Of a stretch of DNA of 64,000 nt, positions 13,554 to 54,640 are shown one piece after another. The position numbers and the translations under genes were made by a program. How positions within the stretch are numbered: position 1 is the first letter of the stretch; every line of letters begins with the position of its first letter. The stretch spans positions 117,242,001 to 117,306,000 of the forward strand of contig OZ024743.1 of NCBI GenBank assembly GCA_964016885.1. Reading direction: 5' to 3'. The notes under the pieces were generated by a model that saw only the letters and a program-made list of their open reading frames with translations, was not told where the DNA came from and did no database searches. The stretch comes from Eledone cirrhosa. Lineage: Eukaryota.

Positions 13554-13727
13554 TATGCTTTGACATTTTCAACTAGAACACCGTTGAAAAGAAAGCTTCT
13601 AAACTGTCACTTCTGCTAAAAGTATGACACTAATTGCATTCAAAACGCGCCTCTCCTCAACGTGGAAGTAGGCACTATTAATGCCGCCTCCGTACTTTTC
13701 AACGGCTCACCCTTAAATTAAAATAAA

Positions 13728-13782
<55 letters not shown>

Positions 13783-14024
13783 TTTTCTTTATTAACCACA
13801 AGGGTTCACATAAAGTAGACATTAAGGACAGTACAGGACAATACAGGACGGTACAAATGGGCATTTCTGCGTGTAAAAGAACAGAGGTTGAAATAAAATA
13901 ACAAAGAAAAATTCCCCAATAGGGGGGAGACTTCCAAGGGACATTTGTTGAGAAAGCCCATTAAAAGACCACAGTGGCCCTGACCACCAGGGCAAGTGCC
14001 CTCTCCCAGTTTTCCACCTTTAAT

Positions 14025-17000
14025 TTACAGACACATACTCAGAGAAGGCCCATTCATTCGGGCCATACTTGCTTCTCTCACCCATCTTTCAACAAAATGC
14101 TGGGAAGAGAGCACTTCCCTCTCTACCCTGATTTTCCTTTTCAAATGAAATTTGAAAAAGTTAATCAGGGCATCACCGAAGAGGTAAGTGCTTGTCTTCA
14201 GCCCTTTCAAACGTGTCCACCATACTATCTCTTTCGCCATGGCCACCAGACAGATAAAAACTGCCTGCCCTTCCAGGCTAAAGGAAGGGGGTGGGGCAAT
14301 CCTCACGATGGACTCAGCTGATAGCTGGATCCATCCTACACGTGACAGCAGGTGTTCGACATAAACCCACAAGTCGGCAATGCTCGGACACTGGACGAGT
14401 GCGTGCAGGACGGTTTCGTCGCCCTGCGCGCATCTCGGACATGCCCGGCTGGCGGCACCTCCATGCCTGTAGAGTTTATCCCGAACTGGCAAAGCTCCTC
14501 GGTAGCACTGCCAGGCCAGGGATTTCTGGAAGTTGTCCATAGGCCCCGGCCCGAAAGTCCTTCCGAAGAGATTGGCTAGTTGATTTTCGTCGACGTCTAG
14601 AGTTTCGCCAAGTACGTCGTCGCTCTTCCCCTCCACTAATCCCCTATAGAACGCCAAGGTGGAGTTTCCACCGATCACATTGCCCGATTGGTCGAGGGCT
14701 GTGAGCGCCTGAAGACATTCCAGTCTCCAAGCGCTCCCTCTCGGTCTTCGCTTGACCCAGGACTGCAGCTCCGTCAAGGAGACGAGCTGGGGAAAAACGT
14801 GTCTTGCAAACGGCGACCACACCTGATCACCGTCGAGGAAGAGGTGGAGATGTCGTAGCCTGAGCGCGTGTCTGCGCATCATCAGCCACGGCATGCCCAG
14901 CCCTCCACGTAGCGGGTGTTGACAGCAGATGGACCGCCTGACCATCGGAGCGCGTCCCTTCCACAAGAAGCGAAAGAGCAAACGCTCCAGCACAGTCAGG
15001 CGGGGCTTAGGACAAGGTACGACGGTCAGGCGGTAGTAGATGACGGATGCGATGTACGCATTCGCCACCTCCGCTCGACCTTTTAGGGATAGCTTCCTCT
15101 CGGCCCATTTCTGGGTGAGAGAAGCCACCCTGCTCGTCACCTCGTCCCAGTTTTTGTCCGTCTGGAGGTCTGGACCGAACCAGACCCCTAGCAATTTAAC
15201 CGGTCCGTCCGTCCAGCGCCCGACGACGCTGTTGGACGGCATGGACCTGCCTCTCCAGGTGCCGAGCTGCAGGCCCACTGACTTTTCCTGGTTGATCATT
15301 GCTCCTGTCACCGCTTCGTATTCTCTTAGTGTAGTGCCGATCGCCTCGATGTGTTTGGCGTTCGACACCACTACGGTGACATCGTCGGCATATGCTGACA
15401 CGGATCTTCCGCACCCTAGTTCGCGCGGGACCCCCCTCAACGTCTCCAGTTTGTGCAGTAATGGCTCGAGAGTCAATACGTACAATAGGGACGAGAGGGG
15501 ACATCCTTGGCGGACCGAGCGCATGATGTTGAACGGTTCCGAAAGGTGACCGTTCACTCTCACTACAGAGCAGATGTCGCTGTGCATGGCAGCGATCCAG
15601 CCTCTGAAGACGGGCCCAAAGCCAGCCGCCCTCAGGACTGCCGCTAGGTAACGATGGTCGACCCTATTGAAGGCTTTCGACTGATCTAAATTGATCAAAG
15701 ACCCACCCGTGCCAGGTTCCCTAGCTACCCTCTCTACGATGTATCGCATGAGGTGGAAGTTGTCGTGGATGGATCTGTCGGGAATGGCGCATGTCTGTGC
15801 CTCTCCCACCAGACCACCAACGACAAGCGCCAACCTCTTTGCTAGCACCTTGGCCAAAATCTTGAACTCTGTGTTTAGCAGAGTTATGGGCCTAAAATTA
15901 TCTATGTTATCCCCCTTGTTCGGATCCTTTCTCAGCAGCGCCACCGCTCCTCGGCTCACAGAGCTGGGAATTCTCCCGTTCTGTTGCCTGTTGCAGTAGA
16001 CGTCCGCCAAGAGGCCTCCGAACAAGTTTGGCATTTGTACGTAAAGTTCATAGGGCAGACCATCCAAACCAGGCGATTTGCCCCTTGTGCAACTAGTCAT
16101 TGCATCCCGTACTTCAGCGGTTGTTATCGGCTTTTCGCAACACTCCGCCTCAGTGGCCGAAAGCCGCGGCAGTCCGTCGAGGTAGACACTAAAGTCCATC
16201 CCTCGATCCGGCCCGCCACTGCCCCCGAACAGTTGAGCGAAGTGTCGCTGAAAAGCTTCACACATTTGCCCGGGATCGAGTAGCATGCGCCCGTCGTGGT
16301 CCACCAAAGACCGGATCGTGGCTTTGTTGCCACGACGCGCCTCCGCCACTCGGGCCCATTCAACGGCTTTCGTCCCCTCGTGTCTGAGAGCACGCACCCT
16401 AGCTCTGACAACGCAGCCTTCGTGCTTTGCATTGAAGAATTGGTCAAGGGCCAATTTCGCCGCAAGTACGTCGGTCGCGATGCCTTTGCTAAGCGCCTCA
16501 TCTAATTTTCTAACTAATTCTCCCTCTGCTCTATTTTTCTCTATTGCTAAAGTCTTACTAAACCTAATGGACTCTATTCTAATTGCTCTTTTCAGAGCAA
16601 ACCACCACTTGTTGTTGACGATGGCCCCCGTCAACGCCCGCTTAACTAGTTCGCTAATCCGGTCTCTGTAGGCCTTGCGCGCTGGTAAGGACGCGTTTAG
16701 CTTCCAGTAGCCGGGTCCTCGTCTATGGAGCCTATCTAAGTCAAGCACACAGATCACGAATTTGTGGTCCGTGTAGCTGACTATCTTGAATTGTGGACAG
16801 CCTATGCTAGACCTATCTATTTCCCTACAAAATACTCTATCTAGATATGATCTGGATGACCCTATGCGATTTGTCCAAGTCCACATTGGTACATTCGGGA
16901 AATCCATTCGGTACCTGTCAGACAGTTCAAAACGTCTGAGCAGGTTGGTGAGACTCTTGCACCCTCCTTCCCTATCCACTAATCCCACACAATCCCAGCG

Positions 17001-17444
17001 TGCATCTAAGATCCCGTTCCAGTCGCCCACTAACACTAAAGAGCGGGACGTTCCAGGAAAGGTCTCCAGACGCCGGAAGAAATCAGGCCGCCCTGCTCCT
17101 GTCGGGGCATAGACGGCCACTAACCTGAAAGCTTGCCCGTCTCCGCTGGTCACGTCCAGCACCACCAACTTACCTTCTGGGTCCAGGAAGATGGCCCGTA
17201 TGGCAAGATCCAAACCTCTCCGAAAAAGCACAGCAACTCCTCCCCCCGATCCCGGACGGCTGGGAGATGCGTACACATCGTAGCCGCCGAAGATCGGTGC
17301 GAAAGCCTGTGCTTCGGAGATTCTGGTCTCGCTAATGGCCACTACATCTATGTTTAGTGACCTGAGGTCGTTGAGCAGGTGGCCCTGCTTCCATGACGAC
17401 CCCAAGCCACGCGCATTTATGCTGCCTATTCTGAGTGAGGTCAT
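14025..17444 (-). CDS. LINE ORF2: APE endonuclease, reverse transcriptase and C-terminal CCHC zinc motif (1139 aa, uninterrupted)
   Basis: APE motifs SINARGL, SETR, GDWN, YLDRVF, TDHK. RT motifs KSPGLDG, NFRPITLLN, DQSKAF, QGCPLS, YADD. Also GGLGMP and CPRC..ETVLHALVQC. Confidence 0.96.
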   Translation of the reverse strand: MTSLRIGSINARGLGSSWKQGHLLNDLRSLNIDVVAISETRISEAQAFAPIFGGYDVYASPSRPGSGGGVAVLFRRGLDLAIRAIFLDPEGKLVVLDVTSGDGQAFRLVAVYAPTGAGRPDFFRRLETFPGTSRSLVLVGDWNGILDARWDCVGLVDREGGCKSLTNLLRRFELSDRYRMDFPNVPMWTWTNRIGSSRSYLDRVFCREIDRSSIGCPQFKIVSYTDHKFVICVLDLDRLHRRGPGYWKLNASLPARKAYRDRISELVKRALTGAIVNNKWWFALKRAIRIESIRFSKTLAIEKNRAEGELVRKLDEALSKGIATDVLAAKLALDQFFNAKHEGCVVRARVRALRHEGTKAVEWARVAEARRGNKATIRSLVDHDGRMLLDPGQMCEAFQRHFAQLFGGSGGPDRGMDFSVYLDGLPRLSATEAECCEKPITTAEVRDAMTSCTRGKSPGLDGLPYELYVQMPNLFGGLLADVYCNRQQNGRIPSSVSRGAVALLRKDPNKGDNIDNFRPITLLNTEFKILAKVLAKRLALVVGGLVGEAQTCAIPDRSIHDNFHLMRYIVERVAREPGTGGSLINLDQSKAFNRVDHRYLAAVLRAAGFGPVFRGWIAAMHSDICSVVRVNGHLSEPFNIMRSVRQGCPLSSLLYVLTLEPLLHKLETLRGVPRELGCGRSVSAYADDVTVVVSNAKHIEAIGTTLREYEAVTGAMINQEKSVGLQLGTWRGRSMPSNSVVGRWTDGPVKLLGVWFGPDLQTDKNWDEVTSRVASLTQKWAERKLSLKGRAEVANAYIASVIYYRLTVVPCPKPRLTVLERLLFRFLWKGRAPMVRRSICCQHPLRGGLGMPWLMMRRHALRLRHLHLFLDGDQVWSPFARHVFPQLVSLTELQSWVKRRPRGSAWRLECLQALTALDQSGNVIGGNSTLAFYRGLVEGKSDDVLGETLDVDENQLANLFGRTFGPGPMDNFQKSLAWQCYRGALPVRDKLYRHGGAASRACPRCAQGDETVLHALVQCPSIADLWVYVEHLLSRVGWIQLSAESIVRIAPPPSFSLEGQAVFICLVAMAKEIVWWTRLKGLKTSTYLFGDALINFFKFHLKRKIRVEREVLSSQHFVERWVREASMARMNGPSLSMCL

Positions 17445-17478
17445 GTTGAAAAGGAGTGGAAAAGATGGGAAAGACCAC

Positions 17479-19464
17479 TTACCTTACTTCTCGTAGGGGA
17501 AGGACGGCTTTTCCATCCTTTTCACTGCTTGTGGCCTCCTCAGGAAGGATGTCCTTATAAATCCTCCTGGAGAGTGCTTGTCGGAAGTCTCCGATGTCTT
17601 TGGGGAATTTTTGTTTTAGTGTCATGTACGTTTTCTGTGTGATGCGAGTGATTTGTATGTGTGGAGGTGGTGTGAATTTTGGGGTTGTTGTGTAGTCTTT
17701 TTCTGTGATGCTGGTGTTGTGTTGGATGTAGTGTAATAATTGCTTGTTGTTCAAATTTAATGCTGTGTAGTGTGTATCGTTTTGGTTGTTTTGTTTTGTT
17801 TGCGTTTGTTGTGGGTTTGTTTCTGTTTCGCTTTTTGGTGACTTTTGTGGTGTAGGTGATGGTGGTGCTGGGGATGATGATGGTGATGGTGTTGGTGTTT
17901 GGGTTGATGGGGTTGGTGATGCTGGTGTGGATGGTGGCATATCTGTCCTAACTTTTTTGTTTCTTAGTTTATTTGTTTCCCTCTGTATTTTGTTTTTGGA
18001 GGGGGAAGGAAGAGAATTTTTTCTTTTTTGGTTTCTTTTTTTTTTCCGGATATCGTTTCCCACTCCTCGTCGTCACAATCTGTCTCCAGTTGTGATAGGC
18101 CGGGGAGTGGAAAATCCTCCACAGCCGTTAGTTTTGGTTGTGGTGTGGTGGATGGTGTAGGCGCTGGTGCTAGTTCTGAAGCGTTGGGTGGTGGTGGTGT
18201 TGGTTTTGCTGGTGGTGGTAGTGGTGTTGGTTTTGCTACTGTTGCTGGGGTTGTTGCTGTTATAGTTGCTTCTGTTGTTGCTGCTACAGTTTTTGCTGCC
18301 ATCTCTGCTACTGGTGGTGTTGATGGTTTTGTCACTGGGGTGGGTAGGAGAGGTGGCCTCAACCTTTTAGCCTGAGGGCAGAAAGCCCTTAGGTGGGTTC
18401 CTTCACCACAAACGACACACCTAGGTCTTCTGCCCTCGACAATTACCGTGAGGTGGCTGCCGTCAGTGAGGTCTATTACCTCTGGGATCTCCTCAATGCT
18501 TTTTTGGTCCGCTTGGATCAGGAGCTCCATCCCAGATCCGGACCAGTTTTCCTGCTTTTCTTTTGCTACTGCTATTATTTTCGTGTTGGCTTCGATGCCG
18601 GTGAGGACAGCCGCTATTAGCCAGGGAATTTCGATGGCCGGTGGAACGTGGGTCACCCTGATCTTTACGAGTCTCTGGCCACAATAGCTTGGGACGAGTG
18701 TGAGGTCGTCACTTTTTAATGGGGCCATGGAGTGTTCTCTAGCCTCCTCTGGTGTTTCAAAGAACACATCCACGGTTCCATACTTTTGCCCACGTCTGAT
18801 GTGGGTTTTTCTTGCCCACACATGTCCCAAAGCTTTTTGGATTTGGGACTCGGATGCCCGTTCCACTCGGCGCAATTTTACATTTATTGTTCTATACGAC
18901 ACGGTGCACAGGCGCCGATGCTCCATTTTATTAGGTGGGGGGGGTGAGGCTGACCCTGTACCCATCTTTCTTTACCATTTGTTTGGCATTTTCTAAATTT
19001 TCTTGGGTTACCGTGAACGCTTCGAATTGTTTTGCTACGATGGCGAAACTGAGGGTCGGTTTTATAATGTCATTGTTGTTGTTGCTATCGTTAATATTAA
19101 TTTTATTTTCAGTTGTGGTGGTTGTGACGTCAGTCGTCTTTGGTGGGGAAGAGTCCATTTTGCTTGATTTCATTTCGACGTCACGAGTTAATTTATTTTT
19201 TTCTTCTTTTGTTTCTGTTGTCGCGGTGGTGGTGGTGGTGGTGGTGGTTGTCGCGGTGGTGGTGGTGGTGGAGGGTTTAACACCTGCAGTCATTGGTAAT
19301 GGCGGGAAATGAATGTCTGCCTGAGACAAATTTAAAATATTGCTACTGCTTATATTTTTTTTTGTGTTGGCAAACGTAGTAACATTTACAATGGTGGTGT
19401 CGGTGTGAGGTGTTATTTTGTGAGGAAGGCTTTCAGCTGCTTCGTGCAGAGGGGAATTAGCCAT
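17479..19464 (-). pseudogene. LINE ORF1 (gag-like, single CCHC knuckle) split by two homopolymer frameshifts
   Basis: Three overlapping ORFs (18931-19464, 17964-18965, 17479-18063) with a CVVCGEGTHLRAFC (CX2CX4HX4C) knuckle. The junctions fall in C and A runs and are read through in copy 3 and copy 2 respectively. Confidence 0.85.
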
Positions 19465-19700
19465 TTTTTTTCAAAGAAATTTTTGGATTATAATAAAAGT
19501 TAAAATTTTGGGCACAAGGCCCCAATCTTTTTGGGTGTCCTTTTCGGAAAACAATGTATGTGTGCTTATAAACAGTTTACAATAAAATTTTCCATAAATG
19601 GCAATTTTTAAACAAACGGAAATAACAAACCTTTGCGGAGCTGACGATAATACGATTTCCTACGTAGGTCGCCAATAATAATAATAATAATAATAATAAT

Positions 19701-22700
19701 GATTTCTTTATTAACCACAAGGGTTTACATAAAGTAGACATTAAGGACAGTGCAGGACAATACAGGACGGTACAAATGGGCATTTCTGCGTGTAAAAAAC
19801 AAAAACAGAGGTTGTAACAAAAAATAACAATGAAAAATTCCCCAATAGGGGGGAGGCTTCGTAGGGACATTTGTGGAGGAAGCCCAGTAAAAGGCCACAA
19901 TGACCATGACCACCAAGGCAAGTGCCCTCTCCCAGTTTTCCACCTTTAATTTACATATATATACTCAGAGTAGGCCCATTCACTCGGGCCATTATTGCTT
20001 CTCTCACCCATCTTTCAACAAAATGCTGGGAAGAGAGCACTTCCCTCTCTACTCTGATTTTCCTTTTCAAATGAAATTTGAAAAAGTTAATCACGGCATC
20101 ACCGAAGAGGTAAGTGCTCGTCTTGAACCCTTTCAAACGTGTCCACCATGTTATCACTTTTGCCATGGCCACCAGACAGATACAAATTGCATGCCCTTCC
20201 CGGCTAAAGGAAGAGGGCGGGGCAATCCTCACCGGACTCAGCTGATAGCTGGATCCGACCTACACGCCTCAGCAGGTGTTCGACATACACCCACAAGTCA
20301 GCAATGTTCGGACACTGGACGAGTGCGTGCAGGACGGTTTCGTCGCCCTGCGTGCATCTCGGACATGCCCGGCTGACGGCACCTCCATACCTTAGAATTT
20401 ATCCCGAACTGGCAAAGCTCCTCGGTAGCACTGCCAGGCCAGGGATTTCTGGAAGTTGTCCATAGGCCCCGGCCCGAAAGTTCTTCTGAAGAGCTTGGCT
20501 AGTTGATTTTCGTCGACGCCTAGAGGTTCCCCAAGTACACGTCGCTCTTCCCCTCCACTAATCCTCTATAGAACACCAAGGTAGAGTCCACCGATCACAT
20601 TGCCCGATAGGTTGTGGGTTGTGAGCGCCTGAAGACATTCCAGTCACCGAGCGCTCCTTCTCAGTTTTCGCTTGACCCAGGACTGCAGCTCCGTCAAGGA
20701 GATGAGCTGGGGTACAACGCGTCTTGCAAACTGCGACCACACATGATCACTGTCGAGGAACAGGTGGAGATGTATGTCGTAGCCTGAGCGCGGTCTGCGC
20801 ATCATCAGCCACGGCATGCCCAGCCCTCCACGTAGCGGGTGTTGACAGCAGATGGACCGCCTGATCATCGGAGCGCGTCCCTTCCACAAGAAGCGAAAGA
20901 GCAAACGCTCCAGCGCGGTCAGGCGAGGCTTAGGACAAGGTACGACAGTCAGGCGGTAGTAGATGAGGGACGCGATGTACGCGTTAGCCACCTCCGCTCG
21001 AACTTTCAGGGATAGCTTCCTCTCCGTCCATGTCTGGGTGAGAGAAGCTACCCTGCTCGTCACCTCGTCCCAGTTTTTGTCCGTCTGGAGGTCCGGATCG
21101 AACCAGAACCCTAGCAATTATACGGTACGTCCGTCCAGCGCCCGACGATGCTGTTGGAAGGCATGAACCAGCTTCTCCAGGTGCCGAGCTGCAGGCCCAC
21201 TGACTTTTCTTGGTTGATCATTGCTCCTGTCACCGCTTCGTATTCTCAGTGTAGTGCCGATCGCCTTGATGTGTTTGGCGTTCGACACCACTACGGTGAC
21301 ATCGTCAGCATATGCTGACACGGAACTTCCGCATCCTAGTTCGCGTGGGAACCCCCTCAACGTCTCCAGTTTGTGCAGTAATGCCTCGAGAGTCAATACG
21401 TACAAGAGGGACGAGAGGGGACATCCTTGGCGGACCGAGCGCATGATGTTGAACGGTTTCGAAAGGTGAACGTTCACTCTCACCACAGAGCAGTTGTCGC
21501 TGTGCATGGCTGCAATCCATCCTCTGAAGACGGGCCCAAAGCCAGCTGCCCTCAGGACTGCCGCTAGGTAACGATGGTCGCCCCTATCGAAAGATTTCGA
21601 CTGATCTAAATTGGTCAAGGACCCACCCGTGCCAGGTTCCCTAGCTACCCTCTCTACGATGTATCGCATGAGGTGGAGGTTGTCGTGGATGGATCTGTCG
21701 AGAATGGCGCATGTATGCGCCTCTCCCACCAGACCACCAACGACAGGCGCCAACATTTTTGCTAGCACCTTGGCCAAAATCTTGAACTCTGTGTTTAGCA
21801 GAGTTATGGGCCTGATATTATATATGTTATCCCCCTTGTTCGGCACCTTTCTCAGCAGCCCCATCGCTCCTCGGCTTACAGAGCTGGGAATTCTCCCGTT
21901 CTGTTGCCAGTTGCAGCAGACGTCCGCCAAGAGGCCTCCGAACGAGTCTGGCATCTGTACGTAAAGTTCATAGGGCAGACCATCGAAACCATGCGATTTA
22001 CCCCTTATGCAGCCAGTCATTGCCACCCGCGCTTCAGCGTGTTTTCGGCTTTTCGCAACACTCCGCCTCAGTGGCCAAGAGTCGCGGCAGTCCCTCGAGG
22101 TAGACACCAACGTCCATCCCTCGATCCGGTCCGCCACTGCCCCCGAACACCTGAGCGAAGTGTCGCTGAAAAGCTTCACACATTTGCCCGGGATCGAGTA
22201 GCATGCGCCCGTCGTGGTCCACCAAAGAGCGGATCGTGGTTTTGTTGCCATGACGTGCCTCCGCCACTCGGGCCCATTCAACGGCTTTCGTCCCCTCGTG
22301 TCTGAGAGCACGCACTCTAGCTCTGACAACGCAGCCTTCGTGCTTTGCATTGAAGAATTGGTCAAGGGCCAATTTCGCCGCAAGTACGTCGGTCGCGATG
22401 CCTTTGCTAAGCGCCTCGTCTAATTTTCTAACTAGTTCTCCCTCTGCTCTATTTTTCTCTATGGCTTTACTAAACCTAATGTACTCTAATCTAATCGCTC
22501 TTTTCAGAGCAAACCACCAATTGTTGTTAACGATGGCCCCCGTCAATGCCCGCTTAACCAGTTCGTTCATCCGGTCTCTGTAGGCCTTGCGCGCTGGTAA
22601 GGACGCGTTTAGCTTCCAGTAGCCGAGTCCTTGTCTATGAAACCTATCTAAGTCAACCTCAAGATCATGAATTTGTGGTCCATGGAGCTGACTATCTTGA

Positions 22701-25385
22701 ATTATGGACAGCCTATGCTATACTTATCTATTTCCCTACAAAATACTCTATCTAGATATGATGTGGATGACACGATGCGGTTTGACCAAGTCCACATTGG
22801 CACATTCGGGAAATCCAATCGGTACCTGTCAGACAGTTCAAAACGCCTGAGCAGGTTGGTGAGGTTCTTACACCATCCTTCCCTATCTGCTAACCCCACA
22901 CAGTCCCAGCGTGCATCTAAGATCCCGTTCCAGTCGCCCACTAACGCTAAAGAGCGGGACGTTCCAAGAAAGGTCTCCAGAAGCCGGAAGAAATCAGGCC
23001 GCCCTGCTGCTGTCGGGGCATAGACAGCCACTAGCCTGAAAGCTTTCCCGTCTCCGCTGGTCACGTCCAGCACCACCAACTTACCTTCTGGGTCCAGAAA
23101 GATGGCCCGTATGGTGAGATCCAAACCTCTCAGAAAAATTACAGCAACTCCTCCCCCCGATCCAGGACAGCTGGGAGATGCGTACACATCGTAGCCGCCG
23201 AAGATCGGTGCGAAGGCCCGTGCTTCGGAGATTCTGTTCTCGCTGATAGCCACTACATCTATGTTTAGTGACCTGAGTTCGTTGAGCAGGTGGCCCTGCT
23301 TCCATGACGACCCCAAGCCACGCGCATTTATGCTGCCTATTCTGAGTGAGGTCATGTTGAAAAGGAGTGAAAAAGATGGGAAAGACCACTTACCTTACTT
23401 CTCGTAGAGGAAGGATGGTTTTTCCATCCTTTTCACTGCTTGTGGTCTCCTCCGGAAGTGTGTCCTTATAAATGATCCTGGAGAGTGCATGTCGGAAGTC
23501 TCCGATCTCTTTGGGGAATTTTTGTTTTAGTGTCGTGTACGTTTTCTGTGTGATGCGAGTGATTTGTATGTGTGGAGGTGGTGTGAATTTTTGGGCTTTC
23601 GTGTAGTCTTTTTCTGTGATGCTGGTGTTGTGTTGGATGTAGTGTAATAATTGGTTGTTGTTCAAATTTAATGCTGTGTAGTGTGTATCGTTTTGGTTGT
23701 TTTCTTTTGTTTGCATTTGTCGTGCGTTTGTTTCTGTTTCGCTTTTTGGTGACTTTTGTGGTGTTGGGGATGATGGTGTTGGGCTTAATGATGGTGATGG
23801 TGTTGGTGTTTGTGGTGATGGGTTTGGTGATGCTGGTGTTGATGGTGGCATAGCTGTCTTAACTTTTTTGTTTGTTTGTTTATTTGTTTCCCCCTGCATT
23901 TTGTGTTTGAGGGCGATGGAAGAGGATTTTTTCTTTTTAGGGTTCTTTTTCTTTTTTTCTTTTTTCCTGATACAATTTCCCACTCCTCGTCGTCACAATC
24001 TGTCTCCAGTTGTGATAGGTCGGGGAGTGGAACATCTTCCACAGGCGTTGTTTTTGGTTGTGGCGTGGTGGATGGTGACGCGCTGGTGTATTTCTGGCGC
24101 GGTAGGTGGTGGTGGTTTGGTTTTGCTACTGTTGCTGGGGTTGTTGCTGCTACAGTTGTTGCTGCCATATCTGCTGCTGGTGGTTTTGATGGTTGCGTGA
24201 CTGGGGTGGGAAGGTGAGGTAGCCTCAACTTTTAGACTAAGGACAGAAAGCGTTTAGTTGGGTACCTTCGCCACAAACGACACATCTAGGACTTCTACCC
24301 GCAACGATTACGGTGAAGTAGCTGCCATCATTGAGGTCTATCACCTCTGGAATTTCTGCTTGGATCAGGAGCTCCATCCCAGTTCTGGGCCAGTTCTCCT
24401 GCTTTTCTTTTGTTACCTCAATTATTTTCTTGTTGGCCTCGATGCAGGGGAGAACAGCAGCTATTAGCCAGGGAATTTCGATGGCCGGTGGAACGTGGGT
24501 CAACCTTATCTTTACGAGTCTCTGACCACAATAGCTTGGGACGAGTGTGAACTCGTCACTTCTTAATGGGGCCATGGAGTGCTCTCTGGTTTCCTGTCGG
24601 GTTCCAAAGAACACGTTCACGGTTCCATATTTTTGCCCACGTCTGATGTGGGTTTTTCTCGTCCACACATGTCCCAAAGCTTTTTGTATCTGGGACTCGG
24701 ATGCCCGTTCCACTCGGCGTGATTTTGTGTTTATCGTCCGATATGACACGGTGCAAAGGCGCCGATGCCCCATTTTATTAGATGGTGGCGGGGGTGGGTG
24801 ATGCTGACCCTGTACCCATCTTTTTTTACCATTCTCTTGGCTTCATTTAATTCATTTGGCCTTCCTCGATTGTTTCGCTTTTCTTGGCTGCTTTGGCGTT
24901 GTTGTTATTCTCGTTGTTGTTGTTGTTGCTGTTGTTGTTGTTATTCTTATTTTTGTTGTTGTTATATTTAGTTTCAGTTGCGGTGGTGGTGGTGGTCGTG
25001 GTGTCAGCAGTTATTGGTTATGGCGGAAAATGAATGTCTGCATGTGACAAATTTAAATTATTGCCACTGCTTATACTTTTAGTGTTGGCAAGCGTAGTAA
25101 TGTCTACAATGGTGGTGGTAGGTGTTGGTCTGATAGGAAGGCTGTCAGCTTTGTGTGGCTGCGAGCCGTCCATGTTTTTTCAAAGAAAGTTTTTGTTTGA
25201 TAATTATAAAAGTTTAAATTTTGGGCTCAAGACCCCAATCTTTTTGAGTGTACTTTCAGAAAGCAATATATGTGAACTTCTAAACAGTTAACAACAAAAA
25301 AAATCCATAACTGGCAATTTGAAACAACTGAAAACAACAAACCTTTACGGAGCTCACGATAACACGATTTTCTAGGTAGGTCAAC
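19701..25385 (-). mobile_element. Full-length Tx1/L1-type LINE, copy 2 (decayed close relative of copy 1)
   Basis: Colinear with copy 1. ORF2 pieces at 22702-23355, 22034-22570, 21118-22383, 20644-21117 and 19951-20232; ORF1 pieces at 23390-25173. (ATT)n tail at 19674-19700. Confidence 0.93.
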
Positions 25386-25409
25386 AATAAAAATAATAAT
25401 AATAATAAA

Positions 25410-28400
25410 GGTTTCTTTATTGGCCACAAGGGCTGAAATGAAGAAAAACATTAGAGACGGCACAGAACATTACATGACGATACAAAGTGGGTTTTGGTCG
25501 TGTAAATAGGTTATAACAAAATCGGGCTAGAAATCAAAAACATTCAAACATCAAAAATTCCCCAGGGGAAACCTCCTAGGGTCGCTGGTGGCGAAAACCA
25601 CACAAAAGGACATCGGCCACCCTGACCGCCAGGGCAAGCATCCTCTCTCAGTTTTCTCACTCCTCAGTCATCAGGTGCATACTCAGAGCGGGCCCATTCA
25701 CTCGGACCAGACTAGCCACTTTCACCCACCTTTCAACAAACTTATTAGAAGACAGTACTTGCTTCTCCAACCTGATTTTCCTCGTCAAGTGAAACTTGAA
25801 AAAGTTAATCAGGGATTGGCCGGAGAGGAAATTGTCCGTCTTCAACCCTTTCAACTCTGCCCACCACACAATATATTTCACCATGGCCACCAGGCAGATG
25901 AAAAGGAGAATGGTGGGACTATCTGCACAATGGACTCAGTCGATAATCGGATCCGTACTACACACGACAGTAGCTGTTCGACATAGCTCCACAAGTCAGC
26001 AATCCTCGGGCACTGAACGAATGCATGCAGGACGGTTTCGTCGCCTTGCGCGCATCTCCGACAGGCTCAGCTGACAGCACCTCCATGCCTGTAGACCTTA
26101 TCCCGAACGCGCAACGGTCCCCGGTAGCACTGCCAGGCCAGGGATTTTTGGAAGTTGTCCAAAGGCCCCGGTCTGAAAGTTCTCTTGAAGACAGCGAACA
26201 GCTGGCCGTCTTCGACGCCTAGAGTCTCCCCGAGAACGTCGTCGCTCTTTCCCTCCACTAACCTTCTATAGAACGCCGAAGGGGATGTTCCACCGATACT
26301 AGTGCCCAGCTGGTAGAGGGCGGTGAGCGCTTGGAGACATTCCAGCTTCCAAGCGCTATCCGTCGATCTTTTCCTGATCCTGGACTGCAGCTCCATCAAG
26401 AAGACGAACTGGGGAAAAGCGCGTCTGGCACACGGCGACCACACCTTTTCATCGCCAAGGAAGCACCAGATATATCACAGCCTCAGCGCATGTTTGCGCC
26501 TCATCAGCCACGGCATGCCTAGTATCCACGCAACGGGTGGAGTACTAGCAAATGGATCGTCTGACCATGGGAGCATGTCCCTTCCACAAAAAGCAGAATA
26601 GAAGGCGCTCCATTTTGGTCAGAGTTGGGCGGGGCAAGGTACGACGGTCAGGCGGTAGCAGATGACGGACGCAATGTACGCATTCACCACCTCTGCCCGA
26701 CCTTTCAGAGACTGCCTTCTCTCGGCCCATTTCTGGGTGAGAGAGGCCACCCTGCTCGTCACCTCGCTCCAGTTTTTTTCCATATGGAGGTCCGGACAAA
26801 ATCAGACCCCGAGCAATTTAAGCGGTCCTTCCTGTCGGGCGGCATGGGCATGCCTCTCTAGGTGCCGAGTTGCAAGCGCACCGTCTTTTCCTGGTTATAT
26901 TTTGCTCCTGTCACCGCTTCGTATTCCTTGAGAGCGGAGTCCAGCATCTGGACGTGTTTGGTGCTTGACACCACCACGGTGACGTCGTCGGCGTAAGCTG
27001 ATAGTGACCTACCGCATCCCAGTTCGCGTGGCACCCCCCTCATCGTCTCCAATTTGTACAGTTACGGATCGTGGGCCAGTACGTACAAAAGGGACGAGAT
27101 GGGGAAACTCTGGCGGACAATGGGAATGATGCTGAAAGGCTGCCTCAGGTGACCATTCAGCTTCACAATCGAGCAGATGTCGCTGTGCATCGCAGCGATC
27201 CAGCCCCTAAAAACGGGCCCGAAGCTGGCCGCCTCGAGGACCGCAGCTAGGTACCGATGGTCGACCCTATCAAATGCTTTAGATTGATCCAAGTTGATCA
27301 GGGCCGCACCCGTTCCAGGGTCTTAACCATCCTCTCTATGATGTATCGCATGAGATGGAGGTTATCGTGGACGGATCTGTCCGGGAAGACGCATGTCTGC
27401 GCCTCTTCCACCAGATCACCGACGACAAGCGCAAATCCCTTTGCTAATACCTTCGCAAAAATATTAAACTCTGCGATTAGCAGAGTTATGGGCCTGAAGT
27501 TGTCTATAATGTCCCCGTTGTTCGGGTCTTTTCTAAGCAGCGCCACCGTACCCGGGCTCACAAAACTGAGAATGCTCCCGTTGTGCTGCTAGTTGTAGTA
27601 GACATCTGCCAGAGGTCGCCGAACAAGTGTGGCATGTACGCATAAAGCTCGTAGGAGACCATCCAAACCTGGCGGTTTAACCGTCGTGCTGTCAGACATC
27701 GCTTCCCGTACTTCACCTGCTGTTATCGGCTTTTCACACTGCGATGGAGTCTATCTAAGTCGACTTCACAGATCACAAATTTGTGATCCGTGTAGGCGAC
27801 TACTTTAAATTGTGGACAACCTACACTAGCCTTATCTGTTTCCCTACATAATACCCTATCTAAATACCATCTGGATGACCCGATGCGCTTTGCCCATGTC
27901 CACATTGGCACATTCGGATAATCCAGTCTATACCTGTTAGACAGTTCAAAACGTCTGAACAGGTTGTTGACGCTTTTACATCCTCCTGCCCTGTCTACTC
28001 GCCCCACATAATCCCAGCGTGCATCTAAGATACCTTTCCAGTCGCCCACTAACACTAAAGGGCGGGACGTTCCAAGAAAGGTCTCTAGACGTCTTAAGAA
28101 ATCTGGCCGTCCTGCCGCTTTTGGGGCCTAGACGGCTACTAGCCTAAAAGCATTGCCTTCGCTGCTAGTCACGTCCAACACCACCGACTTACCTTCTGGG
28201 TCCAGGAAGATGGCCCGTATGGCGAGATCCAAGCCTCTCCGAAAAAGCACGGAACTCCTCCCGCTGATCCTGTGCGGCTGGGAGATGCATATACATACAT
28301 CGTAGCCGCAGAAGATCGGTGCGAAGGCTCGTGCTTCGGAGATTCTGGTCCCGCTGATGGCCACCACATCTATGTTTAGTGACCTGAGGTCGTTGAGCAG

Positions 28401-30679
28401 GTGACACTGCTTTCAAGATGACCCAGGCCACGTACATGTATACGGCCTATTCGAAATACGGCCATGTTGGATGAGAAACGGGGTAAGTGAGAAAGGATCA
28501 CTTACCTTGATCGTGTGGTGAAGGGACAGTAGAACCGTCCCTTTGGCTGGTCATGGGTGTTTCCAAGAGGATGTCGGTGTATATCCTCTTGGTAACCGAC
28601 CCTCTGAAGTCTCCAACTACGTTGGGGAATTTTTCTTTTAAAAGTTTGTAATGTTCTATTTTGATTTCAATGATGTTTATGTTTTTCGGGAGAGTTCTTG
28701 GTGTTGGTAGGGTGTAGTAATTTTTTTCTTTGATATTTGTGTGCTACTTTATATGTTGTAAGAGTTCTTTATTTGCCATGTTTATGGCTGTGAACTTTTT
28801 GTGGAAAGGGGTGATTTTGTTGCTGTTTTCTTCTTGTTGCTGTTGGCTCTGTGTGTTTTGTTGTGTTTGCGATGTTGGTGTTTTGGGTGATGCTGGTGGT
28901 GGTGTGGTTGTTTTTGTTGATGCTTGTGGTGTTGCTGCAAATCTCCTTACAGCCTTTACCTCTCTTTGTTTGCCTTCGCTTTTGGAGGGTGAAGCTAAGG
29001 GTTTTTTTCTTTTTTTTGTTTGTTGTGGCAGACCGTTTGCCACTTCCCTCCCGCCTCATACGCCATGTCGGATTCCGTGGCGTCTGGGAGAGGTATGAGC
29101 TCCACTGCTGTTCGTGGTGTTAGTGGAGCCCGCTCCTGCAATTTTGCCGCCGGTGTAGCTGCTGCGAATGTTGGTGTTGCCGCCACTGCTGCCGCTGTTT
29201 TAGTTGTCAGTGGCCTTGGCCGGGGTGCCACGGACATTGCCCTCCTACTCACCATGGAAGTGTCTTCTGCCTCTGTTGCCTGCCCTGTTCTTGATAGTAG
29301 CGTATCAGGCGTCGGAAGGAGGGGGCCCTCTTCTTGGCTGTCTTCTGTGGGCAGAAGGCCCTGAGATGACCCTTCTGCCCACAGAGATAGCATTTTGGTC
29401 GCCTTCTTTCCACGCTTATAGGGAGTTGGAGTCCTTCCTTGAGGTCTATGATATCTGGGATGGCCTCGATGCACTCCTGGTCAGTTTGTATTAGCATTTG
29501 CATGCCTATTCCTGACCAGTTCTCTCTTCCCATTCTCTGTATTTGCAGTATCGTGGTCTTCTTCTCAATTCCAGCAAGTACAGACGCGGCCAGCCAAGGC
29601 ATGGACACGTAGGGTGGGACCTGGGTCAATTTTGACGCTCACAAATTTCTGCCCGCAGTAGGAGGGCACCAAGTCTATCTCCTCACTTTTTAGGGTTTCC
29701 AAAGAGTGAGACTTTGCTTCGTGGGGGGGGGGAGAAAGGTACGTCTACTGTGGCGTACTTTTTGTCTCGGGTGATGTGGTGTTTGCGCGCCCAGTAGCAC
29801 TCCAAGGTCTTTGGGATTTCAGCCTCCGTGGCTCTCTCCACCCGATGTGACATTTTGCTTACGGTGAGGTAAGTCACCGTGCGCAGCTGCTGGTCTTTGA
29901 AGAAATCGGGTGGAGTTTTCAGGGAAACTCTATTGTCATTTCTTGACACCATGGCTCTTGCGACTGCCATCTCCCCCTCCGTGAGTAGCACTTTCTCTAT
30001 ATTTTGGGCCACACCTGCGAAAGAAGTGGCCCCTTTTTCAGCGCCACCATTATTGCTGCCGCTACTGCTACTACTTGTCTTGTTGTTGATGCTGTTGCTG
30101 TTGCTACAAAGAGTGTTCTTGGTGTTGTTGCTGTTATCACTGTTGTAGTTGGTTGTGTTTTTGGTGCCACCGTTGTTGTTGTTTTCGGTACAATTTGTAT
30201 TTTTGCTGTTGGTGTTGTCGTTCTTTATCTTCTTTTTAATGGTGTTAATATCGTTGTTGCATTTGTTGTCATTTTTTTCTGTTGTCTGTATTTTGGTTGT
30301 TGCTGTTATTGTTGTAGTTGATGTGATAATTTTTTTTAAATTAGTGTTCTAAGTGTTGTTGACTTTGTTCACGTTGTTTGTGGTGGTGTTTGTTGTATCA
30401 ATTTCTGTAACCCTCCTCTCAACTTTTACGCCGTTGTCACACGACAGCAGACATATTGTTGGGGGGGGGGGGGGCATGGCTCAGCCATGTTTTTTTTTTA
30501 TTTTTAAAACTAAAATATTCAAATATTAATCAAATATTTGGGCCAAAAGGCCCAAATATTATACTTTCACAAGGCAAAGTCCAAGGGCTTACACAACAAG
30601 AAAAATTAAGCAACAAATAATTATAACAGGTAAATAAAGCGACCTACTGGTAACGAGCAAAAAGACGTCCGAAGAGCCC
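25410..30679 (-). mobile_element. Tx1/L1-type LINE, copy 3 (divergent subfamily, decayed, about 0.6-kb internal deletion)
   Basis: ORF1 remnants at 28502-30488 with CYLCGQKGHLRAFC. ORF2 remnants start at 28465 (DQSKAFDRVDH, YADD). DRLHR joins directly to the CEKPIT region at about 27740. Confidence 0.9.
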
Positions 30680-31113
30680 AATAATAATAATAATTGTTTC
30701 TACTTTTGGCACAAGGCCAGTAATTACCCAGTGCATTACTGGTACTTTATTTTATCGACCCCGTAAGGATGAAAGGCAAAGTTGACCTCGGCGGGATTAA
30801 ACTCAGAATGGCAAGGGCCGTAACTCTATGCGTCAAAGCATGGCGTCTGACCCTCTACCGATACTACCAATCCATAATAATAATTGTTTCTACTTTTGGC
30901 ACTAGGCCAGCAATTATCTAGTGCATTACTGGTACTTTATTTTATCGACCACGTAAGGATGAAAGGCAAAGTTAACCTCGGCGGGATTTGAACTGAGGAT
31001 GGCATAATAATAATTGTTTCTACTACTGGCACAAGGCCAGCAATTATCCAGTACATTACTGGTACTTTATTTTATCCACCCCGTAAGGATGAAAGGCAAA
31101 GTTAACCTCGGCG
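30680..31113 (-). mobile_element. Tandem of three SINE copies joined by (ATT)n tails
   Basis: Three repeats of AATAATTGTTTCTACT..TGGCAC(A/T)AGGCCAG..GTAAGGATGAAAGGCAAAGTT. Confidence 0.88.
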
Positions 31114-51162: not shown

Positions 51163-54100
51163 TTTCATTTATTGGCCACAAGGGCCGACATATAGCGGAC
51201 AATACAAAAGACTGGGACAGTGGGGTTTTACAGAAAAATCGAGTAAACAATATGAATCACAATAACAAAGTAACAAGAAAATTACAGCAAGAAAAAATTC
51301 CCCAATAGGGGGCATGACCACCCAGGGTTCGCTCAGGTACTCCACCAATCATGAACGACCCGACGCTTCGAGAGCACCCTGGAAGGGCACCCCTCTCCTC
51401 CTCAAATTTACCTACCTACAGCCGCATGACCAGACTCACACGGGCCATTCTCGCCACATACACCCACCTTTCAGCAAATGTACTGGAAGGCAGCACTTCT
51501 CTCTCCACCCTCACCTTCCTTTCCAAGTGAAACTTGAACATGTTGATGAGGGATTGGCCGAAGAGAAAAGTGTCTATCTTCAGTCCTTTCAACCTCGTCC
51601 ACCATACAACCTCTTACGCTACTGCCACCAGACAGGAAAATTGCCTGCCCTTCCTGGCCAAAAGAAGGCGGCGGGTCGATCTTCACTATGGACTCGGCAG
51701 ATAGCCGGATCCGTTCTACACGCGACAACAGCTGTTCAACATAACTCCACAAGTCAGTAATGCAAGGATACTGGACGGATGCGTGCAGAACGGTTTCGTC
51801 GCTCTGCGCGCATCTCGGGCAGGTCCGTCTGACAGCACTTCTGGGCCTGTAGAGTTAATCTCGAACCGGCAGTGCCCCCCCGGTAGCACTGCCAAGCAGG
51901 GATTTCTGGAAATTGTCCATCGTCCCCGGCACGAAAGTCCTCCGGTACAGACTGGTTAGTTCGACTTCGTTGACTCCCAGAGCCTCTCCGAGTGCGTCGT
52001 CGCACTTGCCCACCACTAATCCTCTATAGAACTCGAGAGTGGAAGTTGATGAGTGGAAGTAGATGACGGACGCGATGTACGCGTTTGCCACCTCCGCCTG
52101 ACCTTTCAGTGATAGCTTCATCCCAGCCCAATGCTGGGTGAGACTGGCTACCCTGCCCGTCACCTCGTCCCAATTCTTATCCACCTGGAGGTCTGGCCCG
52201 AACCAAACACCAAGCTACTTTACTGGTCCGTCCGTCCAGCGCCTAACGACGCTTATGGACGACATGGACTTGCCTCTCCAGATGCCGAGTTGCAAGCCCA
52301 CCGACTTTTCCGGGTTAAGTTTTGCTCCCGTCAACCTTTCATATTCCTCCAATAAGTTGCCGACCACCTCAATTTCTGAGGTGTCCGACACCATCACGCT
52401 GATGTCGTCCGCATAAGCCGACACAGCCTTTCCGCGTCCCGGTTCGAGCGGGATGCCCTGCAACAGCTCCAGCTTCCGCAGTAAAGGCTCGAGAGTCAAT
52501 ACGTACAGAAGGGAGGAGAGAAGGCGCCCTTGACGGACCGATAGGGTGACCTGAAACGGTTTAGAGAGGTGGCCATTAATTTTGACCATCGAGCAGGTGC
52601 CGCTGTGCATTGCTGCGATCCAGCTTCTGAAGACGGGACCGAAGCCAGCCGCCTTGAGGACAGCCTCCAGATACAGATGGTCGAACTATCGAATGCTTTC
52701 GATTGATCTAAATTGATCAGAGCCCCACCGAAGCCAGATTTACACCCTACCCTCTCTATGATGTATCGCATTAGGTGGAGGTTGTCGTGTATGGACCTGG
52801 TTGGGATTTCGCAATTTTGCGCCTCCCCAACCAAATCCCCGATGACAAGTGCCAACCTCTTCGCTAACACCCTGGCCAAAATCTTAAACTCTGTTTTGAG
52901 CAGAGTTATGGGCCTGAAATTGTATAAAGTATCCCTCTTGTTCTCGTTTTTCCTTATCAGCGCCACTACGCCCCGGCTCACAGAACTAGGAATGCTCCTA
53001 TTCTGCTGCCAGTTGCAGTAGAGCGCTTCGAAGAGTTTGGAGAACAAGTCTAGCATATTTACGTAAAGCTCGTGGGACAGACCATCCAAACTGGGTGACT
53101 TGCGCTTCATGCAGCCGACAAGGGCATCCTGAATTTCGGCTGAAGTAATCGGCCTTTCGCAGCACCCAGCATCGGCCGTCGAGAGTTGCGGCAAGCCATT
53201 GAGGTAGGGACTGAAATCCGCCACTGTCGCTGACCCGCCACTTCCCCCGAACAACCGAGCTAAATGTTTGCGAAAGGCCTCACACATCCGCTTGGAACCG
53301 CTCAGCTCATGTCCATCTCGGTCCGTCAAAGACCGAATCGTTGTTTTATTACCACGCTGCGCCTCTGCCACGCGGGCCCATCGAACAGGTTTGGTTCCCT
53401 CGTTTCTCAGAGCACGCGCCTTAGCTCTGACAATGCAACATTCGTGTTTCGCATTGAAGAAATGGTCTAATGCCATTCTCGCCACTAGCACGTTAGTTGC
53501 AATGCCACTACCAATAGCCTCGTCTAACTTATCTACCAACTCCCTCTCCTTTCTATTTTTCTCTAACACTACTTCTTTGCTAAACTCTATCGACTTTACC
53601 CTAATCTCTCTTTTGAGAGCCCCTCACCATCTATTGTTGACGACTCCCCTGTCAACCTTTTCTTAACTAAATTGTTGACCTGGTCCCTGTAAGCCTTGCG
53701 TGCCGGAAATGACATGTTGAGCTTCCAGTATCCAGGTTCTAACCTATGCGTCTTATCTAGGTCTACCACCCAGATCACAAACTTGTGATCTGAATAGGCA
53801 ACCCTTTTAAAACGTGGACAGCTTACACTATTTCTGTCTATTTTCCTAATGAATATCCTGTCTATATACGATCTAGAAGACTCTATGCGGTTATCTAGGT
53901 CCACACTGGCGAATTCGGGATATCTGGTCGGTACCTGTCAGACAGTTGGAACTGGCTGATCAGGTACTTGCGCTTTTGCACCCTCCGATCCTATCGGATA
54001 CTCCCACACAGTCCCAGCGTGCGTCTAAGATGCCGTTCCAGTCCCCCGCTAAGAGTAAAGGGTGAGGCGTACCCAGAAAGGCTTCCAGGCGTCTAAAGAA

Positions 54101-54472
54101 GTCCGGCCGTCCTGCCCCAGTAGGGGCGTATACGTCCACCAGTCTAAAGGCACCAACTTCGTTATTGTTCACGTCCAGGACCACCAAATTCCAGTCCGCG
54201 TCCCGGAAGTTCGACCTTACCTCGAGATCCAGGCCTTTCCTAAACAGCCCTGCCATCCCGCCTCCCATTCCCAGCCGACTAACAGATGCAAAGATCTGAT
54301 AGTCGTCAAAATTGGGGGCTAGTGCGCGCGTGTCAGAAATCCTGGTCTCGCTGACGGCAATTGCATCCATTTCTAGAGACCTGAGGTCGTTGAGCAGGTG
54401 GACCTGCTTCCAGGACGATCCCAGGTCTCGAACATTTAAACTTCCTACTCTTAATACGGCCATGTTGGCAGA
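51161..54472 (-). mobile_element. Tx1/L1-type LINE, copy 4: ORF2 plus 3'UTR only, decayed
   Basis: MAVLRVGSLNVRDLGSSWKQ, GDWN, YSDHK, NFRPITLL, DQSKAFD and YADD. There is an internal deletion at about 52055 and an (ATT)n tail at 51123-51160. Confidence 0.9.
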
Positions 54473-54473
54473 T

Positions 54474-54640
54474 TAAAATAAAGTACCAGTAATGCACTGG
54501 GTAATTGCTGGCCTTGTGCCTAAAGTAGAAACAATTATTTGAATTGACTTTGCCTTTCATCCTTACGGGTTCGATAAAATAAAGTACCAGTAGTGCACTG
54601 GATAATTGCTGGCCTTGTGCTAAAAGTAGAAACAATTATT
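54474..54640 (+). mobile_element. Two partial SINE copies in tandem
   Basis: SINE 3' halves ending GGCCTTGTGC..AAAGTAGAAACAATTATT. Confidence 0.8.

What the first reader, a model, noticed from the sequence alone, without database searches (positions are those of the whole stretch)
30680..30873. The tRNA-like SINE appears to be the non-autonomous partner of the Tx1-type LINE
Seen: the SINE ends TGGC-CTTGT-GCCA-AAAGTAGAAAC-A(ATT)n, and the LINE ends GCC-CTTGT-GGC-CAATAAAGAAAC..(ATT)n. Loop, GAAAC and tail unit are the same. SINE copies also form head-to-tail tandems joined at ATT tails (30680-31113, 50015-50475, 50834-51122, 54474-54640). Inference: the SINE is mobilised by this LINE and inherits its target preference, so SINE tails can seed LINE arrays. 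The SINE body (CCTTTCATCCTTACGGGGTCGATAAAATAAAGTACCAG) recalls a conserved central domain of metazoan SINE superfamilies; this is from memory and unverified.
Basis: partly seen in the sequence, partly recalled or inferred. Interest (0 to 1): 0.7.

Follow-up and report, generated by a model that had tools for sequence, protein, structure and literature searches.

The report
SINE carrying a Tx1-lineage end signal
An abundant short jumping element in this likely octopus genome ends in the same small hairpin sequence and ATT repeat as the long L1/Tx1-type jumping genes beside it and lands in the same ATT sites, so it is likely copied by an enzyme of that lineage, though probably not by the youngest copy seen here.

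Summary
Observation confirmed. 30680-30874 (minus) is one of 16 aligned copies of a ~190-nt SINE with Pol III-type boxes. Its end shares CCTTGTG, GAAA and (ATT)n, without gaps, with four L1/Tx1-type LINE ends; the 4-bp stem covaries (31 of 32 cells paired). SINE copies and LINE L2 have 8-16 bp target duplications starting in ATTAT. Two RTE-like ends and one Dong/R4-like end in the window lack a terminal hairpin, and the Dong tail reads (TAA)n, the opposite polarity.

New here: LINEs only 40% identical in ORF2, from another organism, carry the SINE's exact stem (GGC-CTYGT-GCC) behind a C-rich tract near their 3' ends, as a longer sister SINE does. The tail is therefore likely a Tx1-lineage signal, closer to older or unseen families than to the young L1/L2 copies.

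Limits: no genome was held; CR1/L2 ends were not seen; whether a SINE tail seeded this array is unresolved; Tx1 versus other L1 lineages was not tested by tree. The central block is shared with a foreign SINE, but no named superfamily could be assigned. The scan noted this pairing before on other DNA of this genome. New variant of a known kind; interest 0.5.

The parts
30680..30874 (-). Nearly full-length SINE copy (the finding); 6.7% from the window consensus
30858..30869 (-). A-box-like motif (box consensus recalled)
30794..30804 (-). B-box-like motif (box consensus recalled); no tRNA gene called
30739..30776 (-). Central block; 28 nt of it occur in a foreign SINE with another head and tail
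30707..30719 (-). SINE 3' hairpin TGGC-CTTGT-GCCA
30680..30694 (-). (ATT)n tail, abutting the 5' end of LINE L3
30874..31113 (-). Two 5'-truncated SINE copies upstream in head-to-tail tandem; the middle one is flanked by ATTATTATTATG on both sides
25386..30679 (-). LINE L3, decayed, 5' UTR present; 3' hairpin GCC-CTTGT-GGC at 25423-25433
19674..25382 (-). LINE L2, 90.9% identical to L1; 3' hairpin AACC-CTTGT-GGTT at 19713-19725
13722..19671 (-). LINE L1, youngest; intact 1139-aa ORF2 (14025-17444: endonuclease, RT, zf-RVT), ORF1 in three frames; 3' hairpin at 13794-13806
25386..25397 (-). ATTATTTTTATT, repeated at 13722-13733: target duplication around L2+L1
19506..19523 (-). Second hairpin GGGC-CTTGT-GCCC in the L1 5' UTR; counterparts at 25219-25236 (L2) and 30537-30556 (L3)
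51123..54470 (-). LINE L4, decayed, begins at about the ORF2 start; 3' hairpin GGCC-CTTGT-GGCC around 51175-51185; tail followed by two SINEs
50828..51122 (-). SINE tandem directly behind the L4 tail
50012..50476 (+). SINE triple; first junction without ATT, second with ATT
54474..54640 (+). SINE pair; the second copy is flanked by ATTATTTGAA on both sides
40846..40876 (-). Orphan 3' end TGCC-CTTGT-GGTA, GAAAC, (ATT)n; no ORF remnant found upstream
41683..41895 (-). Decayed longer sister SINE with a C-rich tract before the same hairpin

Best explanation
This is a non-coding SINE whose end shares a hairpin-forming CCTTGTG motif, GAAA and (ATT)n with neighbouring L1/Tx1-type LINEs, and it is likely copied by the ORF2 enzyme of that lineage. 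Inferred steps: RNA polymerase III transcribes the SINE; ORF2 protein binds the stem-loop with its CUUGU loop; the endonuclease nicks at ATTAT sites; the (AUU)n tail pairs with the nicked strand and primes reverse transcription; a second cut 8-16 bp away gives the target duplication. Each insertion leaves new ATT repeats, so SINEs and LINEs stack in one orientation. The donor of the tail was likely an older or unseen family with a GGC/GCC stem, not the young L1/L2.
For: Shown: ungapped shared end. Stem pairs in 31 of 32 cells, 3 of 4 pairs change on both sides, 0 of 500 shuffles reach the score, slid controls pair 9-53%; with four foreign ends and the 5' UTR hairpin 42 of 44. SINE ends vs L3/L4/orphan score 32-38 (p at most 0.0065), vs L1/L2 26-29 (p 0.005-0.044), vs two RTE-like ends 17-20 (p 0.09-0.47). 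Target duplications with unique letters: 11, 15, 16, 10 and 12 bp at copies 13366, 31703, 38917, 54547, 30874; 12 bp around L2+L1. 12 of 16 SINE copies have ATTAT or TTATT just 5' of their start, background 5.6%. LINEs with 40% ORF2 identity carry GGC-CTYGT-GCC behind a C-rich tract shortly before AATAAA; array-terminal and 5'-truncated copies place it at their 3' end. The Dong/R4-like end at 38215-38733 has a (TAA)n tail. No run of four T in 5 of 5 long SINE copies checked.
Against: The shared stretch is short (about 25 nt) and weak in energy: z-scores of the tail folds are +0.5 to -1.9, and in 4 of 7 tails the minimum-energy fold is not this hairpin, including the SINE copy of the finding. 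The Dong-like end scores 21, 27 and 23 (p 0.12, 0.015, 0.08), overlapping L1/L2, and its 3' UTR holds a TGCC-TTTGT-GGCA hairpin about 105 nt before the tail. The 11-mer also occurs in an unassigned 286-bp repeat (L173). Plain pairwise scans of five foreign loci put a tail window first in only one and second-third in one. The foreign stretch was found with a motif taken from the SINE. CR1/L2 ends of this genome were not seen. Covariation shuffles ignore relatedness.
Confidence: 0.72

Rival explanations
1. The tail was captured once from a Tx1-type LINE, but the hairpin is a relic; today the SINE is moved through its (AUU)n repeat alone, by any ATT-targeting Tx1 enzyme (relaxed recognition).
For: Weak folding energies and a competing fold in the short SINE; the fourth stem pair is broken in a sizeable share of copies (30707 T>A, e.g. 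7080 of 23069 reads in X24); most L1-group LINEs have no tail-sharing SINE (PMC3747384, passages).
Against: Loop and closing pair are kept across LINEs 40% identical in ORF2 while stems change in pairs.
Confidence: 0.1
2. An unseen CR1, L2 or RTE family is the partner; the likeness to Tx1 ends is convergence on a common RNA motif.
For: CR1 and RTE are active in Octopus vulgaris (PMC13282606, Table 1); mollusc SINE partners in print are CR1, CR1-Zenon, L2 and Nimb (PMC11481361, passages); the 11-mer occurs in an unassigned repeat; no genome-wide screen was possible.
Against: Both RTE-like ends in the window end in (TATG)n or (GAA)n with no hairpin; SINE and L2 share the same kind of target duplication; foreign Tx1-type ends carry the SINE stem exactly.
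Confidence: 0.1
3. Dong/R4, which targets the same microsatellite, mobilises the SINE.
For: Dong targets TAA repeats (PMC3812793, passage) and is the most active LINE group by recent insertions in O. vulgaris (PMC13282606, Table 1); its end here scores up to 27 against a SINE end and its 3' UTR has a one-mismatch hairpin.
Against: The one Dong-like end ends in (TAA)n and meets a decayed SINE tail to tail on the other strand; SINE tails read ATT; the Dong hairpin is about 105 nt from the end, not about 13.
Confidence: 0.06
4. The tandems and the LINE array arose by DNA duplication or unequal crossing-over, not by repeated insertion.
For: Head-to-tail order; L1 and L2 are 90.9% identical.
Against: Tandem members have different 5' truncation points and their own target duplications; L3 is only 68-69% identical to L1/L2; ORF2 damage rises from 0 breaks in L1 to 13 in L2 and 21 in L3.
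Confidence: 0.02

Closest known systems
Stringent L1-clade SINE/LINE pairs: maize ZmSINE2/3 with LINE1-1_ZM; Chlamydomonas SINEX-3_CR with L1-1_CR (PMC3472496 passages; PMC3747384 passages and Table 1)
   Same: SINE and L1-group LINE share a 3' hairpin with fixed loop and covarying stem.
   Different: Those are plants and algae with poly(A) or poly(T) ends; this is an animal, with an (ATT)n tail and a microsatellite target.
SINEU with Tx1-Mar of crocodilians (PMC4494074, parts 2-3 of 5 read)
   Same: A SINE moved by a Tx1 group, sharing its target and forming tandems by sequential insertion.
   Different: SINEU has snRNA heads and poly(A) tails; no Repbase LINE matched the SINEU-1 3' half, so the link rests on target and age. 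Here there is a shared 3' structure and a tRNA-type head.
Microsatellite-targeting Tx1 families Kibi (TC)n, Koshi (TTC)n, crocodilian (TTCC)n/(TTTC)n; Dong (TAA)n (PMC4494074; PMC3812793 passage)
   Same: Repeated insertion into a simple repeat.
   Different: The target reads ATT in the element's sense; no SINE partner is named for these in the passages seen.
Octopus SINEs OK, OR1, OR2 and the CORE/Meta/V/Deu superfamilies (Ohshima and Okada 1994, not seen; PMC4824008; PMC5786205; PMC4758252)
   Same: tRNA-type head plus a central block shared between distant animals with swapped tails.
   Different: The CORE motif CCTTGGG is absent; only a 19-of-23 likeness by eye to the start of one bivalve Meta sequence. 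Identity with OK, OR1 or OR2 could not be checked, so the SINE itself may already be catalogued.

Membership tests
tRNA-derived SINE | Short, non-coding, many dispersed copies with 5' truncation, simple-repeat tail and target duplications | tested here: met
   16 copies aligned in 64 kb, duplications at several; very deep cover in 4 of 4 runs laid
tRNA-derived SINE | A and B boxes, no internal Pol III terminator | tested here: met
   A-like in 4 of 5, B-like in 5 of 5, no T4 in 5 of 5; box consensus recalled
tRNA-derived SINE | Head traceable to a named tRNA | tested here: inconclusive
   ARAGORN and Rfam find no tRNA
L1 group of non-LTR retrotransposons (the LINE) | ORF2 with APE endonuclease, RT and C-terminal zinc motif, closest to L1 ORF2p | tested here: met
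   Pfam; human L1 ORF2p E 1.8e-51 against R2 7e-18
Tx1 clade (the LINE) | RT phylogeny grouping with named Tx1 elements | not testable with these tools
   No named Tx1 protein among the hits; no tree built
Tx1 clade (the LINE) | Target-specific insertion; CCHC-type ORF1 (the latter recalled as typical) | tested here: met
   3 of 3 full-length copies start behind ATT-rich repeats; zf-CCHC at about the cutoff in L3 ORF1, look-alikes
Stringent SINE/LINE pair | Shared 3'-terminal sequence and covarying stem-loop | tested here: met
Stringent SINE/LINE pair | No other LINE clade matches the tail better | tested here: inconclusive
   2 RTE-like and 1 Dong-like end match worse than L3/L4; CR1/L2 not seen; no genome
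Stringent SINE/LINE pair | Overlapping activity periods | tested here: inconclusive
   SINE 4.8-11.8% from consensus, median 6.8%; private changes L1 25, L2 78, L3 225, L4 397 of 2647 columns, the last two mixed with subfamily divergence
Stringent SINE/LINE pair | 3' end needed for retrotransposition in trans | not testable with these tools
   needs a cell assay
CORE-SINE | Conserved 5' CORE part with CCTTGGG (PMC5786205 passage) | tested here: not met
   motif absent in 5 of 5 long copies; no likeness by eye to the 5' part of bivalve CORE sequences
MetaSINE | 66-bp Meta domain directly behind the tRNA head | tested here: inconclusive
   19 of 23 letters alike by eye to one bivalve sequence, the rest of the domain missing; the consensus is in a figure that is not held

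The most novel reading that the evidence does not exclude
An animal Tx1-type lineage keeps an old, stringent 3' stem-loop signal (CUYGU loop) across 40% ORF2 identity, a major octopod SINE family spread by capturing it, and the local LINEs carry a second copy of the same hairpin in their 5' UTR, so the motif may be a protein-binding site used at both ends of the RNA.
Probability: 0.3. Interest if true: 0.7.

Novelty: new variant of a known kind. Interest (0 to 1): 0.5.

Why it matters
SINEs make up 11.6% of the Octopus vulgaris genome and most recent families are unclassified (PMC13282606); naming the enzyme behind an abundant family explains where it lands and why ATT repeats collect stacks of elements. 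A 2012-2013 survey found only 3 tail-sharing SINEs for over 800 L1-clade LINEs, all in plants or algae (PMC3747384). An animal case with a 13-nt hairpin and an intact ORF2 at hand makes the question whether ancestral L1-group enzymes recognised their RNA stringently directly testable.

Tried and rejected
No whole genome was held, so no genome-wide screen of LINE ends, ages or targets. No RNA holder listed. ARAGORN and Rfam found nothing for the head. The central block gave 0 matches in viral and in genome contigs; ORF2 gave no relative in viral contigs. A literature search for three SINE motifs returned 48 papers; the 40 listed were unrelated by title. SINEBase supplements could not be read and the bivalve SINE library file was unreadable; either may name this SINE. 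I first read the hairpin of the distant LINEs as part of their 5' UTR; array ends and truncated copies showed it is the 3' end. The assembly that holds those LINEs (G001) has no copy of this SINE (best E 0.2). Folding energy does not support the hairpin on its own. A decayed Tx1-like end at about 33473 has lost the hairpin and scores at background. Contigs that cross from ATT into an L3-type start cannot show whether a SINE lay upstream; not used as evidence. DNA duplication was rejected as the main source of tandems.

Full report
Setting. No whole genome is held. The host is likely an octopod: a protein 57% identical over 45% of the LINE's ORF2 is named from Argonauta hians, and a short piece matches an Octopus sinensis protein. 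This is inference.

The SINE. The finding is a nearly complete copy on the minus strand at 30680-30874. BLAST finds copies across the window; I aligned 16 of the short family and left out weaker, decayed hits. They are 4.8-11.8% from their consensus, median 6.8%. A-box-like and B-box-like motifs are present in 4 and 5 of the 5 long copies checked, with no run of four T (box consensus recalled). ARAGORN and Rfam see no tRNA. All four tandems named exist; the junction near 50187 lacks ATT.

The LINEs. Three full-length copies lie head to tail behind the SINE: L3 (25386-30679), L2 (19674-25382), L1 (13722-19671); a fourth, L4, lies at 51123-54470. The 5' UTRs of L1-L3 align from the end of the ATT repeats. 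L1 has an intact 1139-aa ORF2 with endonuclease, RT and zf-RVT, closest among solved structures to human L1 ORF2p. So the L1 group is shown. 'Tx1' is inferred from target specificity and a CCHC-type ORF1; no named Tx1 protein was among the hits, so no tree was built.

The shared end. Eight ends (three SINE, four LINE, one orphan at 40846-40876) align without gaps around CCTTGTG. The four flanking pairs hold in 31 of 32 cells; 3 of 4 pairs change on both sides; slid controls pair at 9-53%. These shuffles ignore relatedness. Terminal 40-mers of three SINE copies score 32-38 against L3, L4 and the orphan (p at most 0.0065) and 26-29 against L1 and L2 (p 0.005-0.044). Folding energy is weak, and in 4 of 7 tails the minimum-energy fold is another one. 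The evidence for the hairpin is conservation, not stability.

Insertion signature. Five SINE copies have duplications with unique letters that begin in the ATT repeat or its last letters: 11 bp (13366), 15 bp (31703), 16 bp (38917), 10 bp (54547) and 12 bp (30874). 12 of 16 copies have ATTAT or TTATT within about 20 nt of their 5' junction; background is 5.6% (counted by eye). Copies 54547 and 30874 are duplicated at the tail of another SINE, so these tandems are separate insertions. ATTATTTTTATT flanks L2+L1: L2 entered at the end of L3's tail and L1 then entered L2's tail, in line with 0, 13 and 21 ORF2 breaks in L1, L2 and L3. The order of the SINE trio and L3 cannot be read, because only pure ATT lies between them. 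At 51123 two SINEs follow a LINE tail. 'Shared target' is supported; 'SINE tails seed LINE arrays' is possible but not shown.

Rivals inside the window. Two RTE-like elements (clade judged from recalled motifs and a tblastn match) end in (TATG)n at 44751 and (GAA)n at 36255, score 17-20 and have no hairpin. A Dong/R4-like 3' piece at 38215-38733 (clade name recalled) ends in (TAA)n and meets a decayed SINE tail to tail on the other strand. Against my reading: its last 40 nt score 21, 27 and 23 (p 0.12, 0.015, 0.08), as high as L1/L2 in one case, and its 3' UTR has TGCC-TTTGT-GGCA about 105 nt before the tail. Polarity and hairpin position still favour the L1/Tx1 type. No CR1 or L2 end was found in the window.

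Distant relatives. A scan of genome contigs returned 45 loci, 43 of them tandem LINEs about 40% identical in ORF2, eukaryote-like DNA inside one bacterial MAG; the host is unknown. About 700-730 nt after the ORF2 stop they carry GGC-CTYGT-GCC behind a C-rich tract, then a second hairpin and AATAAA. Similarity between subfamilies breaks there; the last copies of two arrays run into other DNA 12-17 nt later, and two 5'-truncated copies start there. So it is their 3' end. In that assembly the motif occurs 66 times against 3 for the reversed pattern; 2 of the 66 lie in an unassigned 286-bp repeat and 2 on the large contig C1. The two more distant loci (28% and 31%) show no such hairpin. A longer sister SINE, seen at 41683-41895 and in loose ends of public reads, has the same order: C-rich tract, then this hairpin. 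A profile made from 10 distinct foreign ends gave as its top 10 hits in the window the long SINE end (9.6 bits), 8 short SINE ends and the L1 5' UTR hairpin (5.8-6.9 bits); the best of 20 shuffles was 6.8; it did not hit the L1-L4 3' ends. The foreign stretch was picked with a SINE-derived motif, and plain pairwise scans were weak, so this is support of moderate weight. Reading: the SINE tail came from a Tx1-type family with a GGC/GCC stem; the short family then lost the C-rich part; the window's LINEs kept the loop but changed the stem.

Central block. A 28-nt pattern from the block matched 121 metagenome loci (a capped scan). Most are one foreign SINE-like family with another head and another tail; 0 of 122 matches have the tail hairpin downstream. 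It lacks the CORE motif CCTTGGG (PMC5786205 passage) and resembles only 23 nt of one bivalve Meta sequence. No superfamily is assigned.

Mechanism. Shown: shared end, covariation, duplications, polarity, stacking order of L1-L3. Inferred: Pol III transcription, binding of the stem-loop by ORF2 protein, nicking at ATTAT, priming by the (AUU)n tail. Untested: that the hairpin is required, and which family is the live partner. Confidence 0.72.

Literature. Tail-sharing pairs in the L1 clade are reported for maize, sorghum and Chlamydomonas (PMC3472496 passages; PMC3747384 passages and Table 1). Tx1-moved SINEs are known from crocodilians, argued from target and age (PMC4494074, parts 2-3 of 5). 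Mollusc SINE partners in print are CR1, CR1-Zenon, L2 and Nimb (PMC11481361 passages; PMC4824008 parts 1-3 of 6 and part of its supplement; PMC4758252 passages). Octopus repeat papers list L1-Tx1 and many unclassified SINEs without pairing them in the parts I read (PMC13282606 parts 1-2 of 3; PMC8967140 passages). Searches showed no octopus SINE-Tx1 pair. Repbase, Dfam, SINEBase files and Ohshima and Okada 1994 were not available and may already hold this SINE. The scan itself noted the pairing on other pieces of this genome; those notes are not independent evidence.

Verdict. A real, probably Tx1-lineage-dependent SINE with a stringent-type 3' hairpin: a new variant of a known kind, interest 0.5.

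Noticed in passing
window 19506-19523, 25219-25236, 30537-30556 (minus): The LINE 5' UTR holds a hairpin about 45-55 nt before ORF1; in L1 it has the SINE's exact 11-mer, in L3 it is a 12-bp stem (z -3.7). It may be a captured tail or a second binding site.
   Followed up: partly
window 38605-38617 (+): A Dong/R4-like 3' UTR has TGCC-TTTGT-GGCA, one letter from the Tx1 loop, about 105 nt before its (TAA)n tail; one copy only.
   Followed up: partly
L122-L166 (G001 contigs): A bacterial MAG holds many contigs of tandem, largely intact L1/Tx1-type LINEs (6.4-6.8 kb units) with conserved ORF2 and 3' UTR but exchanged 5' UTR and ORF1 starts; likely host DNA binned by mistake.
   Followed up: partly
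L173 360-370 and 646-656: A 286-bp repeat of unassigned class carries the same 11-mer behind CCCACCTTAAAAAC.
   Followed up: partly
L001-L121: A SINE-like family of about 480 nt from other animals' DNA shares the central block, has an A-box-like start and ends in TTTACC repeats.
   Followed up: partly
window 54460-54480: L4 begins a few letters before the ORF2 start codon, head to head with a 5'-truncated SINE on the other strand.
   Followed up: no
window 7407-8297 and 8852-10111: A large inverted repeat beside an ORF with a weak GIY-YIG hit (E 0.026): possibly a Penelope-like element.
   Followed up: no
window 55859-57960 (+): Decayed Dong/R4-like element with RT but no 3' end.
   Followed up: partly
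window 32330-33480 (+): Internally deleted, decayed Tx1-like copy whose tail lost the hairpin but keeps ATT.
   Followed up: partly
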